A stretch of DNA of 64,000 nt, taken from a virus. Within the stretch, counting starts at the first letter, position 1, and each line of letters starts with the position of its first letter. The notes beneath the pieces are model-generated. The model was not told the DNA's origin and ran no database searches. It saw only the letters and a list, made by a program, of their open reading frames with translations. Positions 9,841 to 13,494 of this stretch are shown here, piece after piece. A program made the translations under genes and the position numbers. The DNA is taken from IMG/VR virus record IMGVR_UViG_3300036820_000003, positions 1 to 64,000 of that record. The stretch is one strand, 5' to 3'.

Positions 9841-9910
9841 TTGCATACCTGCGCGCACTACTGTAGTGTAGCAAGTGTTAGCAGGTAGTCCCGTCCGCTG
9901 GGCGGACGGG
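9841..9910 (+). promoter_or_regulatory. Housekeeping-sigma-type promoter and 5' hairpin of the RAMP-like operon
   Basis: TTGCAT (9841) -17 nt- TAGTGT (9864); perfect 9-bp hairpin CCCGTCCGC-TGG-GCGGACGGG at 9890-9910; RBS AAGGAG before 9931. Confidence 0.6.
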
Positions 9911-9930: not shown

Positions 9931-10629
9931 ATGCCCATGCCTGAAGAAGAGTCTACCATACAGAATGGCGTGGTAGCCATTAAGCGGATCGCCTCAGAGA
10001 CTATCTACGTTCCGTTGATCGGGACTTCGCCGCTCATCGTTAGCAAATTCTCGCAAAAGGCGAAGCGTCAGATGCTAGACGCACAGCAAGGACGAAAGAG
10101 CCCCCGGGAAGCGCGTAATCCGCAAGCGGAGTACGAGGCTTCCAAGTACGAGGGGAAGGACGACGGCGGGAACACCATCTACGGGTTCCCCGCCTCCGGG
10201 TTCAAGAACGCGACCGTCAGCGCGGCACGGTTCTATGGTCGGGACGTCAAGATGACGGAGCTACGGCAGTTCATCTTCGTCCGTGGACGCTACTTCCCGG
10301 AGGAGAAGCAGCAGTTCGCTGTCATCGAGGGCACCCCGAACATGCGCGAGGACTGCGTCCGCCTCGCCGGAGCCGGACGACCGGCTGATCTGCGTTATCG
10401 CGCGGAGTTCACTCCCTGGCGCGCTATTCTCGTAGTCACCTACGTCGCGTCGCTACTGTCCAAGGACTCAGTGCTGTCCCTCATCGACGCAGCGGGCATG
10501 GGCGTCGGGATCGGTGAGTGGCGACCGGAGCACAAGGGCGAGTTCGGCACGTTCCAGATCGACGAGAAGCGTGACCCGGCCGACATACTGGTTAATGTCA
10601 AGGCGTGCTACGGGGACGCCAATGGCTGA
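9931..10629 (+). CDS. Stand-alone RAMP/Cas7-like protein (Vipr-like candidate effector)
   Basis: IYVPLIGTSPLIV (first RRM strand), YGFPASGFKNAT (cf. RAMP iPgSslKGa), and C-terminal Gly-rich loop AAGMGVGIGEWRPEHKGEFGTF; upstream of the pentamer array. Confidence 0.75.
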   Translation: MPMPEEESTIQNGVVAIKRIASETIYVPLIGTSPLIVSKFSQKAKRQMLDAQQGRKSPREARNPQAEYEASKYEGKDDGGNTIYGFPASGFKNATVSAARFYGRDVKMTELRQFIFVRGRYFPEEKQQFAVIEGTPNMREDCVRLAGAGRPADLRYRAEFTPWRAILVVTYVASLLSKDSVLSLIDAAGMGVGIGEWRPEHKGEFGTFQIDEKRDPADILVNVKACYGDANG

Positions 10630-11044
10630 CCTGCGAACCGAGCTTGCCAAGATTTACGAGCAATACGGCAAGCTCACTGCGGAGATCGTGCTAGAGGAGG
10701 CAACTCCGGTAGACCACCCGCTTCACTCCCAATTCACCTGGGACGACAGCGAGGCAGCTCGCCTGTACCGTCTCGAAGAAGCACGACGACTCATCCGAAT
10801 CGTCCGGGATCCCATCACCACGTCCAGTGGTGAGGTGGCGCGCGTCCGAACGTATCACTCACTCCCTCAGGAGGGTGGTGACCGTGCCTATCAGTCTACG
10901 GATGACATCGTGAAGGACGATATCTCCACGCAGATTCTTCTCCGGCAAGCCGAACGAGAGTACCGTACACTCCTCACGAAGTACGGTCATCTCAAGGAGT
11001 TCATCGAGATGGTGCGGGCGAGCCTGCTCGAAGAAGTAGCTTGA
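10622..11044 (+). CDS. Conserved phage hypothetical protein, accessory gene between the RAMP gene and the array
   Basis: ATG overlaps the RAMP stop region; motif HPLHSQFTWDDSEAARLYRLEEARRLIR. Confidence 0.8.
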   Translation: MADLRTELAKIYEQYGKLTAEIVLEEATPVDHPLHSQFTWDDSEAARLYRLEEARRLIRIVRDPITTSSGEVARVRTYHSLPQEGGDRAYQSTDDIVKDDISTQILLRQAEREYRTLLTKYGHLKEFIEMVRASLLEEVA

Positions 11045-11049
11045 CATAA

Positions 11050-11703
11050 GTGTTACGGTGCGGTACGGCAGTCGAGTCAAGGCACGGAGTGTTCAGGCGG
11101 GGTTAGTTAGGGTTTGTTACGGTGATGTCTGGTGCGTCGGGTGTGGTTGAGCAGTCGAGGTGAGGTGTCGCGAGTCACGTCATGGCTTGGCGGTGTACGT
11201 CAGTCGAGGCGATGTACTGTATCGTGAGGCGCGGGTAGGTCATGTCCGTTCGGGTATGGTCAGGTAAGTCAGTCTAGGTGCGGTTTCGTGGGGTGTCGCG
11301 GGGACAGGTTAGGCTGGGTGCGGCAGTCAAGGCGATGTGCGGTTTCGCGGGGCACAGTCCGTTTTGGCATGGTGTGGCAGTCGCGGTGAAGTGCGGGTTG
11401 GCGGGGTCTGTTACGGTGTAGTCAGTTCGGGCGTGGTATGGTCGGGCAGTCTAGGTTTGGCTAGGTTGGGTCAGTTCGTGCGCGGTTCGGCGTGGCTTGG
11501 CGGTCACGGTACTGCGTGGCGTGGCTAGGCTCGGCAGTTATGGCCCGGCTTGGTAGAGTATGGTATGTCCTGGTGTGGTCAGGTAAGTCAGTTACGGCGG
11601 GGTTTGGCTTATCAAGGCGTGGCCCGTCAAGGTGAGTCATGGCAGTCCAGGTAAGGTGTGTTTGGGTCTGTCATGGTCAGGTCTGGTGGGGCAGTCAAGG
11701 TTC
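11050..11703 (+). repeat. GGY-NN pentamer array of 11 units, putative guide-RNA (vrRNA-like) array
   Basis: Delimiters (G/A)(G/T)C(A/G)GT(C/T)NN at 11067, 11150, 11199, 11268, 11322, 11376, 11445, 11499, 11533, 11587, 11641 and 11690. The last ten spacings are 49, 69, 54, 54, 69, 54, 34, 54, 54 and 49 nt (all 5n+4). Hand count: 58/90 pentamers are exact GGYNN and 87/90 have a pyrimidine at position 3. No credible ORF. Confidence 0.92.
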
Positions 11704-11721
11704 GGATGCTATACTTAGGAC

Positions 11722-13494
11722 ATGAGCGCACTCTCAGATGTCCAGCTCCACCTGATCACCAGTCTCGATGAGGCACTAGAACTCAAGCGCTGGCTGGGAG
11801 AGCGGCGCGAGATTCTCGCAGTGGACACGGAATCGTCCGGCTTGAGTCCCACGAGAGACAAGCTACGTCTTGTCCAAGTGGGAGATCACAAACAAGGCTG
11901 GGCGATTCCGTGGCCTATGTGGGGCGGTTTCGTAAAAGACATCTTCCGTGACTACGACGGACCAATTGTCATGCATAACCTCCCGCATGACTGGCGTTTC
12001 TTGCATCTTCAGGGGGATATCACACTCCCTTGGCATCGTCTAGATGATACATTGCTCATGGCTAGCCTTGACGATCCCGCCCGTCCCCGTGGACTCAAGC
12101 CCCTGTCGAAAAAACTTGTTGACCCCCGGGCGGATTCGGGTCAAAGAGCGCTCGATGATGGAATGAAGGCCGCAGGCTGGACATGGGCTACAGTTCCAGT
12201 AGACTTTGTGCCCTACTGGTATTATTCAGCACTCGACCCGGTGCTAACCGCTCACCTGTGGTCGTATTTGAAACCACGAGTGAGTCGTGATTGCCCTCTA
12301 GCGTACGATCTAGAACTAGGCACTAATCGGGTGTGCACTCAGATGATGCTACGTGGTATTCGACTCGATCGAGAATATGTAGCCGAAGCACAAGACAAAC
12401 TGGAAAAATACTCTAAGGATGCACGCTTCTGGCTTGATGCTGCTTACGGAATTAACAGCGTACTGAGCGCTAAGCAAATCTCAAGTGCTCTATCTTCACA
12501 CGGTGAGCCTCCTACAGCCTGGACTCCCACTGGCTTGCCGAAGATGGACAAGGAGTTTCTAACCCGCATTCGTGACTTCGGTCGGACCTCGGAGGCCCGC
12601 GAGATCGCGCAGCAGGTGCTCGGGGTGCGTCATGCTGAAAAAATGATCAGCTCTTACCTCGAAAATTTCGTTAAGCGCATGGATGACGATGGCATGGTAC
12701 GCTGCAGTATCTGGTCTGCGGAGGCAATCACGGGACGGATGAGTTGTACCGATCCCGCATTGCAGACTCTTTCGCGCGATGATACATTTATCCGTGGAAG
12801 CTTCATCCCCCGCGAGGGAAATGTCTTCATCTCCTGCGACTACTCGCAGGTTGAGGCGCGGCTGGCGGCGCATTATGGTCGCGACCTGGACATGATCCAG
12901 GCATTTCTAGACGCGGACGCGGGCGGGCCGGACTTTTTCACGACGATCGCCTCCCAGATCTACAACCGTCCGATCTCGAAGGCGGACATCGAACGCCAGT
13001 TCACTAAGAACGTCACCTACTGCACCATCTATGGCGGCGGACTCGAAAAGATGGCGAAGACCGGCGGGGTGAGTCCGGAGGTGATGGCCCCGGTGAAGGA
13101 GGGGTTCGACACTCGGTTCCCGGGGTTGCGCCGGTTCATGGCGGAGATCACAGCCGAAGCCAAAGAAACGGGCCGCCGGGAAGGTCGCCCGGCGGTCCGT
13201 TCTGGGATGGGACGCTACCTGCCGGTGGAGGAGCGCAAGGAGTACGTGGCGTCCAACCGGGTGATCCAGGCCGAGGCCGCCGAGGTGCTCAAGCGGGCGA
13301 TGCTCGACCTGGACGCGGCAGGGCTGGGCGAGTACATGATCCTCCCCATCCACGACGAGGTACTGTTCGATGTCCCTCGTGAGGAATCCGAGGAGGCGTG
13401 CAAGCTGATCGGTGATGTGATGACCGTGACGGACCGCTACCTGGTCCCGCTTACCGCTAAGGCCCAGATCCTTGAGGAGCGCTGGGCGAAGTAG
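11722..13494 (+). CDS. polA: DNA polymerase I (family A; 3'-5' exonuclease plus polymerase)
   Basis: VDTES, HNLPHD, CDYSQVEAR (motif A), RQFTKNVTYCTIYGGG (motif B) and IHDE (motif C). Leaderless start 6 nt after TATACT. Confidence 0.95.
   Translation: MSALSDVQLHLITSLDEALELKRWLGERREILAVDTESSGLSPTRDKLRLVQVGDHKQGWAIPWPMWGGFVKDIFRDYDGPIVMHNLPHDWRFLHLQGDITLPWHRLDDTLLMASLDDPARPRGLKPLSKKLVDPRADSGQRALDDGMKAAGWTWATVPVDFVPYWYYSALDPVLTAHLWSYLKPRVSRDCPLAYDLELGTNRVCTQMMLRGIRLDREYVAEAQDKLEKYSKDARFWLDAAYGINSVLSAKQISSALSSHGEPPTAWTPTGLPKMDKEFLTRIRDFGRTSEAREIAQQVLGVRHAEKMISSYLENFVKRMDDDGMVRCSIWSAEAITGRMSCTDPALQTLSRDDTFIRGSFIPREGNVFISCDYSQVEARLAAHYGRDLDMIQAFLDADAGGPDFFTTIASQIYNRPISKADIERQFTKNVTYCTIYGGGLEKMAKTGGVSPEVMAPVKEGFDTRFPGLRRFMAEITAEAKETGRREGRPAVRSGMGRYLPVEERKEYVASNRVIQAEAAEVLKRAMLDLDAAGLGEYMILPIHDEVLFDVPREESEEACKLIGDVMTVTDRYLVPLTAKAQILEERWAK

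What the first reader, a model, noticed from the sequence alone, without database searches (positions are those of the whole stretch)
11081..11689. Decoded NN strings: shared prefix in three units and a possible codon-wobble-skipping target code
Seen, NN per unit: 11081 AC GT CA GG TA AG TT AC GA CT GC; 11159 GA GT GA AC AT TT GG AC; 11208 GA AC AT GA GC TA CA CC CG AT CA AA; 11277 GC TT GG GT GG CA TA TG GC; 11331 GA GC TT GG AC CC TT AT GT; 11385 GA GC TT GG CT AC GT CA CG GT AT CG; 11454 TT TA TG CA CG GC TC GT TT; 11508 AC GT GT TA TC; 11542 CC TT AG AT AT CT GT CA AA; 11596 GG TT TT AA GT CC AA GA AT; 11650 AA GT TG CT AT CA CT GG. Three consecutive units share (GA)-GC-TT-GG. Inference: if targets are read NN-x-NN-x, the skipped base could be the wobble position, giving peptide patterns such as [DE]A[FL]GLTV[HQ]RV[IM]R (HTH-like) and TV[HQ]GY[SR][FL]T[DE]LA. 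Any dinucleotide string can be read this way, so this is only a hypothesis. I found no target in the window by eye.
Basis: partly seen in the sequence, partly recalled or inferred. Interest (0 to 1): 0.8.

Follow-up and report, generated by a model that had tools for sequence, protein, structure and literature searches.

The report
Phage VIPR guide-RNA array, decoded

Summary
All 11 NN strings are exactly as listed. The 677-nt non-coding tract 11045-11721 has a 5-nt period found nowhere else in the 130-kb phage genome.

It is a VIPR locus (bioRxiv 10.64898/2026.04.26.720920 and .720927):
- A Cas7-like Vipr gene lies at 9931-10629.
- A conserved winged-helix-like partner gene (vap) lies at 10622-11044.
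- A "staggered" array follows, with 11 vrRNA units of G-G/T-Y-NN repeats.

It is therefore supported by literature and homology, and it is not new.

No target was found:
- Own genome: none.
- Exact NNx scans of IMG/VR for 7 guides gave chance-level hits.
- 212 clade guides against 343 kb of related loci scored the same as shuffled guides.
- Guide U6 was searched in 401 and U3 in 151 Actinomycetes genomes. This gave only 3-mismatch hits in a housekeeping gene and an unconserved nuclease site.
- The host is unknown, so this null is weak.

Units U5 and U6 share GA-GC-TT-GG while their scaffold letters differ. This points to selection on the NN letters.

The scan has already reported VIPR systems in at least eight other actinophage genomes. 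Verdict: a new member of a known kind.

The parts
9841..9869 (+). Promoter-like pair TTGCAT, 17-nt spacer, TAGTGT upstream of vipr. A hairpin follows at 9890-9910 and an AAGGAG ribosome site lies before the ATG.
   Evidence: Read directly from the sequence printed. No tool scan covered this stretch; inference only.
9931..10629 (+). vipr: a 232-aa Cas7-like RAMP protein (P0001).
   Evidence: Its only PDB sequence match is 36pp_D 'SUSP1 Vipr protein' (E 0.02 alone; E 1.8e-5 with a clade profile). The AlphaFold model has pLDDT 86. Its best folds are all Cas7/Csm3/Cmr4-type RAMPs, 81 hits at E<=1e-3. The G-loop GxGxGEWRPE and the thumb Arg are invariant in 23 relatives. It matches phrog_4652.
10622..11044 (+). 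vap: a 140-aa accessory protein whose start overlaps the end of vipr.
   Evidence: It is conserved next to vipr in Gordonia and Mycobacterium phages and in metagenome locus L004, at 29-47% identity. It matches phrog_15946. The model has pLDDT 91. Residues 1-98 align to winged-helix DNA-binding domains (Fur, MarR, MecI, forkhead) at Z 5.2-6.3 only.
11052..11071 (+). Short leader unit U0: three repeats plus the terminal GGCAG.
Its NN string starts GC TT GG.
Its NN string starts GA GC TT GG.
Its NN string starts GA GC TT GG.
It is short and may form one long unit with U7.
11694..11708 (+). Truncated trailing repeats (GTCAA GGTTC GGATG) that run into the polA promoter region. There is no terminator.

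Best explanation
The tract 11052-11708 is the guide-RNA (vrRNA) array of a phage-borne VIPR system. Its protein genes, vipr (9931-10629) and vap (10622-11044), lie directly upstream on the same strand.

Mechanism, by homology with the characterised SUSP1 and P. fulva systems:
1. The array is transcribed and cut into units of about 10-16 five-base repeats.
2. One Vipr protomer binds each repeat and buries the G-G/T-Y letters. The conserved G-loop E196-W197-R198 and thumb R157 correspond to SUSP1 D177-W178-R179 and R138.
3. Vipr presents the two variable letters. These pair with double-stranded DNA two bases out of every three, so the skipped base falls on codon wobble positions.
4. Binding silences transcription of the target, presumably in a rival mobile element or a host gene.

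Shown here: the repeat grammar, the RAMP fold, the specific sequence link to SUSP1 Vipr, the conserved gene-array association, and the hypervariable NN letters.

Inferred: expression and processing of the array, the 1-nt skip rule in this clade, and silencing.

Unknown: the targets.

The array is of the tail-less 'staggered' type. Each unit ends in GGCAG, and that last G is also the first letter of the next unit, which here begins GTC or GTT.
For: Grammar and uniqueness of the tract.

Vipr:
- The only PDB sequence hit is SUSP1 Vipr, with key RNA-binding residues aligned and invariant in the clade.
- The predicted fold matches Cas7-family RAMPs.

Gene-array association:
- GGY-NN arrays lie beside vipr homologues, always on the same strand, in Gordonia phages UmaThurman and Ecliptus and in Mycobacterium phage Saal.
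- The same holds in about 40 of 53 soil-metagenome loci.
- All four loci from bacterial assemblies also yielded guide units (Gordonia MAG, Microbacterium ginsengisoli, Streptomyces caeni, Saccharibacteria MAG).
- Neighbouring genes differ between these loci.

vap is conserved with vipr.

Clade grammar: 186 of 247 units end in GGCAG with a 1-nt overlap, and most have 9-13 repeats. This matches the 'staggered arrays' of the VIPR paper.

Guide letters:
- The guides of this array share nothing beyond chance with 236 other clade guides, as expected for hypervariable guides.
- U5 and U6 keep 8 of 8 NN letters identical while the scaffold triplet differs in all four shared repeats.
- NN composition of 246 clade guides fits codon positions 1-2 better than uniform, 2-3 or 3-1 (log-likelihood -6543 against -6624, -6808 and -7184).

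Published mechanism.
Against: - No target was found for any of the 11 guides, and gapped matches were not enriched over controls.
- The 1-nt skip rule has been demonstrated only for type II systems of Proteobacteria. Vipr here is only distantly related to them (E 1.8e-5 over the C-terminal third).
- The scaffold is looser than GGY: position 1 is G in 83 of 101 repeats and position 2 is T in 16.
- There is no 3' tail or pseudoknot, and no terminator.
- Expression was not tested.
- This array's own NN composition does not discriminate between codon phases.
Confidence: 0.9

Rival explanations
1. It is a VIPR array, but the guides are aimed at conserved motifs of host genes (for example defence or secreted-nuclease genes) rather than at rival phages, prophages or satellites.
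For: Earlier follow-ups of this scan on other actinophages proposed host defence genes as targets (unchecked). Guide U3 matches 21 of 24 letters, in frame, in a secreted SNase-like nuclease gene of one Actinomycetes genome.
Against: The 29 homologues of that nuclease gene do not keep the match; the best elsewhere is 16 of 24. The U6 hits with 3 mismatches fall in a pseudouridine synthase gene, and the reversed-pattern control gave a similar count. No hit with 2 or fewer mismatches was found for U6 in 401 or for U3 in 151 class-level genomes.
Confidence: 0.15
2. The tract acts as DNA. It would be an array of iterons or protein-binding sites, such as a replication origin or an upstream regulatory region of the adjacent DNA polymerase gene.
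For: It lies directly upstream of polA and abuts a good extended -10 element, TGcTATACT at 11706-11714.
Against: Equivalent arrays travel with vipr, not with polA. They lie up- or downstream of vipr in unrelated gene contexts and always on vipr's strand. In L004 the array ends in an intrinsic terminator hairpin. The strong G+T strand bias and the 3-fixed/2-free grammar fit a single-stranded RNA read by a RAMP protein.
Confidence: 0.03
3. The RNA is a sponge or wrap-around ligand for some other oligomeric RNA-binding protein (TRAP-like), or a G-quadruplex-forming element. In that case the NN letters carry no information.
For: Triplets spaced by 2 nt recall TRAP sites, and GG every 5 nt could form two-tier quadruplexes. 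This was my first reading, before the literature search.
Against: The adjacent protein is specifically related to SUSP1 Vipr and has a RAMP fold. The NN letters of U5 and U6 are conserved while scaffold letters drift. Clade NN composition is codon-like. The published structures explain the grammar exactly.
Confidence: 0.02

Closest known systems
VIPR systems with 'staggered' vrRNA arrays (bioRxiv 10.64898/2026.04.26.720920, main text and legend of fig. S18)
   Same: Both have a lone Cas7-like Vipr, one small vap gene, a phage genome, and back-to-back vrRNAs of GGY-NN pentamers in which the end of one unit overlaps the start of the next by 1 nt. There is no CRISPR array and there are no other cas genes.
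   Different: - The first repeat of every unit here is GTC or GTT rather than GGY, and the scaffold is relaxed to G-G/T-Y.
- The array runs without a terminator into the polA promoter region.
- I could not see the paper's supplementary tables. So I cannot say which of the seven VIPR types this is, or whether this phage is already among the 667 listed loci.
Type II VIPR of Escherichia phage SUSP1 and the Pseudomonas fulva prophage (same preprint; structures in 10.64898/2026.04.26.720927; PDB 36pp)
   Same: One protomer binds per pentamer. The G-loop and thumb residues that hold G1, G2 and Y3 are conserved: D/E-W-R and Arg. Unit size is 9-16 repeats, and the partner protein is predicted to bind DNA.
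   Different: - Sequence similarity is detectable only over the C-terminal third (E 1.8e-5 with a profile).
- SUSP1 vrRNAs are separate transcripts of about 100 nt with a 3' pseudoknot tail. Here there are 11 contiguous tail-less units.
- Targets are known for SUSP1 (a satellite recombinase) and unknown here.
Class 1 CRISPR-Cas effector backbones (Cas7, Csm3, Cmr4)
   Same: The RAMP fold is shared. Both form a filament on a guide RNA with periodic flipped bases.
   Different: - There are no CRISPR repeats or spacers, no Cas5, Cas6, Cas1 or Cas2 genes, and no adaptation module.
- The period is 5 nt with 2 pairing letters, instead of 6 nt with 5 pairing letters.

Membership tests
VIPR system | Vipr protein: a minimal RAMP with an RRM core, a glycine-rich loop and a thumb | tested here: met
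   The model has pLDDT 86. The top PDB folds are all Cas7-type RAMPs. The clade profile hits only 36pp_D SUSP1 Vipr, at E 1.8e-5. G189-G191-G193-G195-E196-W197-R198-P199 and R157 are invariant in the clade.
VIPR system | vrRNA made of 9-16 tandem pentamers with a conserved GGY and a hypervariable NN | tested here: met
   There are 11 units of 7-16 repeats. Positions 1-3 are constrained and positions 4-5 are near uniform. The guides are unrelated to those of 236 clade relatives. The scaffold is somewhat relaxed, to G-G/T-Y.
VIPR system | The array is encoded next to vipr, and the association holds across relatives | tested here: met
   Same-strand arrays lie next to vipr homologues in 3 isolated actinophages and about 40 of 53 metagenome loci. 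The 4 loci from bacterial assemblies also yielded same-strand guide units. No arrays were found on the opposite strand of the phage and metagenome loci.
VIPR system | An accessory vap gene predicted to interact with DNA | tested here: inconclusive
   The partner gene is conserved. The winged-helix-like N-terminal domain is supported only at Z 5.2-6.3 and Foldseek E >= 0.16. Which of vap1-6 it corresponds to is unknown.
VIPR system | Mainly virus-encoded | tested here: met
   The genome is a 129,940-bp virus record with phage DNA polymerase, terminase and portal genes.
VIPR system | Targets obey the 1-nt skip rule, with the skipped base on wobble positions | tested here: inconclusive
   No target was found, and real guides scored like shuffled or reversed controls. 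The IMG/VR hits were at chance level. Clade-wide NN composition favours codon positions 1-2.
VIPR system | vrRNAs are expressed, processed and co-purify with Vipr, and binding represses transcription | not testable with these tools
   This needs small-RNA sequencing, pull-down and reporter assays.
VIPR type II (SUSP1-like) | An invariant 3' tail with a pseudoknot after each repeat tract | tested here: not met
   Units abut one another with a 1-nt overlap and no tail. There was no Rfam hit.
CRISPR-Cas class 1 | A CRISPR repeat-spacer array and a multi-gene cas operon | tested here: not met
   Only vipr and vap flank the array. The tandem-repeat finder sees no CRISPR-like repeats.

The most novel reading that the evidence does not exclude
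In this tail-less actinophage clade the constant junction (GGCAG overlapping GTC/GGC) may be a new, ribozyme-free processing signal. Guides such as the U4-U6 trio would then be kept by selection to hit one conserved protein motif, [D/E]-A-[F/L]-G, across variants of a rival element's or the host's gene. Wobble-skipping would serve to defeat synonymous escape in Actinobacteria too.
Probability: 0.2. Interest if true: 0.5.

Novelty: new member of a known kind. Interest (0 to 1): 0.28.

Why it matters
It shows that the 2026 VIPR class extends to a large and very divergent soil actinophage. Its DNA polymerase is at most 43% identical to any phage in the collection. The whole clade of vipr-vap-array cassettes is currently annotated as hypothetical proteins, or even as a CDS laid over the array, as with UmaThurman gp40.

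For this particular finding, the practical value is a clean, verified list of 11 guide strings and their likely true boundaries. These can be run against the right host and virome data once those are known.

It does not open a new question.

Tried and rejected
1. My first reading was a TRAP-like, iteron or G-quadruplex element. I dropped it once the literature and the Vipr homology were found.
2. Rfam gave no family at E <= 1.
3. Close relatives of the phage:
   - Megablast of the region found none.
   - The polA peptide scan of IMG/VR found none.
   - Primase and capsid-region proteins have only remote phage hits.
I therefore could not fetch the 134-kb contig that carries the 72%-identical Vipr, P0007.
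5. Self-targeting: none at skip 0, 1 or 2. The perfect skip-3 hits are the guides themselves.
6. Exact NNx scans of IMG/VR for 7 guides:
   - U6: 0 hits. U3: 0 hits.
   - U5: 8 contigs in 3 families. These were a prim-pol gene in frame, a repeat protein, and a non-coding frame.
   - U4: 1 hit, with stops in frame.
   - U9: 0 hits.
   - U10: 2 hits in unrelated proteins.
   - U7: 0 hits.
   - These counts match my own rough estimate of about one chance hit per 18-letter pattern.
7. Cross-targeting among 212 clade guides and 343 kb of fetched loci plus this genome: real equals shuffled at skips 0-3.
8. Class-level genome samples:
   - U6 (401 genomes) gave 2 hits with 3 mismatches, both in rluB-like genes, against 1 control hit.
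   - U3 (151 genomes) gave 1 hit with 3 mismatches, in a nuclease gene. It was not conserved in that genome's family or order, nor in 29 homologues.
   - Unpublished genomes G026 and G038 contributed two of the 30 loci scanned. G026, G038 and G009 are also among the 64 of 401 genomes counted as matching. Only that null result and that tally touch them.
9. Host inference: the phage HddA has Trebonia sp. MAGs as its best named relatives, at 63-64% identity. The best hit in a 401-genome sample was 61%. This is not enough to name a host.
10. The supposed BldC gene is a generic excisionase-type HTH.
11. The array RNA fold has z = -2.4, which is uninformative.

Full report
**What is there**

The window is the first 64 kb of a single 129,940-bp virus record with 63% G+C.

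Between a small ORF ending at 11044 and a 590-aa DNA polymerase I gene starting at 11722 lies 677 nt without a credible ORF. The tract is G+T rich: G 284, T 185, C 119 and A 97 over positions 11041-11725. It has a sharp 5-nt period, with lag-5 identity of 0.45 against about 0.24 for other lags. The 12 best 200-nt windows for this period in the whole genome all lie here. Neither strand holds a second array.

**Check of the observation**

The fixed triplet behaves as follows:
- GGT 40 times, GGC 24, GTT 9 and GTC 6, with a few degenerate forms.
- Position 2 is never A or C.
- Position 3 is a pyrimidine in 97 of 101 repeats.
- Positions 4 and 5 are close to uniform.

Each unit is followed by G[GT]CAG-T[CT]-NN. 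This is simplest to read as two normal repeats sharing one G: a terminal GGCAG, then a first repeat GTC/GTT-NN. Unit lengths are therefore 5k, with a 1-nt overlap. U1 has an irregular GCAG end, and U7 has a degenerate GGCGG end.

U5 and U6 both start GA GC TT GG, and U4 starts GC TT GG. A shared run of 4 or more NN arises in 3.6% of shuffles. In the four shared repeats of U5 and U6, all 8 NN letters are identical, while the scaffold triplet differs every time (ggc/ggt, tgt/agt, ggt/ggg, cgc/ggc). This looks like selection on the NN letters and not like a recent duplication.

**What it is**

A literature search then found three 2026 preprints.

VIPR (Viral Interference Programmable Repeat) systems consist of three parts:
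- a minimal RAMP protein, Vipr;
- a small accessory gene, vap;
- vrRNAs of 9-16 YNNGG/GGYNN repeats.

One protomer binds each repeat and hides GGY. The NN letters pair with dsDNA while every third target base is skipped. That base falls on codon wobble positions, and binding represses transcription. Some types have 'staggered arrays' in which the end of one vrRNA is the start of the next, with a 1-nt overlap.

**Tests of membership**

Vipr, the 232-aa protein upstream (9931-10629):
- It has no Pfam family.
- Its only PDB sequence match is chain 36pp_D, 'SUSP1 Vipr protein', at E 0.02. This improves to E 1.8e-5 with a 23-member clade profile.
- In that alignment, SUSP1 R138, D177, W178 and R179 correspond to R157, E196, W197 and R198. 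These are the residues the structure paper says hold G2, G1, G2 and Y3. All four positions are invariant in the clade.
- The AlphaFold model (pLDDT 86) finds only Cas7-type RAMPs at the top of the PDB list: type VII Cas7, Csm3, Cmr4/6 and Cas7-11. There are 81 hits at E <= 1e-3.

vap, the next gene (10622-11044):
- It overlaps the end of vipr.
- It is conserved beside vipr in Gordonia phages UmaThurman and Ecliptus, in Mycobacterium phage Saal and in a metagenome relative.
- Its model (pLDDT 91) has an N-terminal domain that aligns almost exclusively with winged-helix DNA-binding domains, but only at Z 5-6.

**Comparative evidence**

Vipr has 2481 homologues, including 32 actinophage records.

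In the three phages I opened, a GGY-NN array lies beside vipr on the same strand. In UmaThurman it is annotated as the CDS gp40. The same holds for about 40 of 53 metagenome loci. All four loci from bacterial assemblies also yielded guide units (Gordonia, Microbacterium, Streptomyces, Saccharibacteria MAG). No arrays appear on the opposite strand of the phage and metagenome loci, and the neighbouring genes differ.

In L004, whose Vipr is 72% identical, the order is vipr-vap-array, as here. The units end in GGCAG and the array ends in a terminator hairpin.

Over 247 distinct clade units:
- 186 end in GGCAG.
- The next unit starts on that G with GGC (142), GTC (37) or GGT (17).
- Most units have 9-13 repeats.

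The guides of this array share nothing beyond chance with the other 236.

**The targeting code**

I tried to confirm it for this locus.
- **Own genome.** The best skip-0, 1 and 2 matches equal those of shuffled guides.
- **IMG/VR.** This collection can only be scanned for exact patterns. Seven guides gave 0, 0, 3 families, 1, 0, 2 and 0 hits. The hit proteins are unrelated to each other, and two hits are not in an open frame. This agrees with my rough expectation of about one chance hit per 18-letter pattern.
- **Clade guides against fetched DNA.** 212 clade guides scanned against 343 kb of fetched loci plus this genome show identical distributions for real and shuffled guides at every skip.
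- **Actinomycetes genomes.** In 401 genomes, U6 has only two 3-mismatch hits, both in a pseudouridine synthase gene, against one hit for the reversed control. In 151 genomes, U3 has one 3-mismatch, in-frame hit in a secreted nuclease gene. That site is not kept in the genome's order or in 29 homologues.
- **Indirect support.** The NN composition of 246 clade guides fits codon positions 1-2 (mostly antisense) better than a uniform model or the other two phases. The 98 NN of this array alone do not discriminate.

The host is unknown. The closest named relatives of the phage's HddA kinase are Trebonia MAGs at 63-64% identity. The right target database was therefore probably never searched.

**Verdict**

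The object is a VIPR vrRNA array of the staggered, tail-less kind with its vipr and vap genes.

It is plausible here by homology but unconfirmed for this locus, and the targets are unknown. Other follow-ups of this scan have already described VIPR systems in at least eight other actinophage genomes.

This is a new member of a known kind. Its minor peculiarities are the GTC/GTT first repeat, the relaxed scaffold, and an array that abuts the polA promoter with no terminator.

Noticed in passing
L011, L015, L018, L021, L067 (arrays next to vipr): One guide string, TG CC AG TC TG GC (often flanked by AG and GC), recurs in five separate VIPR loci, although guides are otherwise hypervariable. This may point to a widely shared target.
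   Followed up: no
L001:3640-3963 (Gordonia phage UmaThurman gp40): The annotated 'hypothetical protein' CDS lies entirely on the GGY-NN vrRNA array and is probably a mis-annotation. The ORFs at 11278-11421, 11337-11528 and 11492-11635 in the window are the same kind of artefact.
   Followed up: partly
window 11706-11724: An extended -10 element, TGcTATACT, ends 7 nt before the ATG of DNA polymerase I. There is no Shine-Dalgarno sequence, so the polA mRNA may be leaderless. The consensus scan reported no two-hexamer promoter.
   Followed up: no
window 9872-9879 and 11047-11054: The octamer AAGTGTTA occurs just after the promoter-like -10 upstream of vipr, and again at the very start of the array just after a TTGACA hexamer. 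These could be two transcription start regions.
   Followed up: no
G000 122740-123750 (L071:18740-19750, minus strand): A phage-encoded D-glycero-D-manno-heptose-7-phosphate kinase. Its best named relatives are Trebonia sp. MAGs at 63-64% identity. This hints at an uncultured soil actinomycete host.
   Followed up: partly
L076 (G146:C128:1863-1897, minus strand): Guide U3 matches 21 of 24 NN letters, in frame (QAMEAYHPSIQN), in a 485-aa secreted SNase-like nuclease with lamin-tail-like repeats. The site is not conserved in 29 homologues, so the match is most likely chance.
   Followed up: yes
whole genome G000: The phage is very isolated. Its DNA polymerase is at most 43% identical to any phage in the collection. 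Its terminase is closest, at 48%, to a Microcystis phage. The primase-helicase and a 1033-aa capsid-region protein with a maturation-protease-like segment have only remote hits.
   Followed up: partly
The resemblance is generic and does not identify a Streptomyces host.
   Followed up: partly
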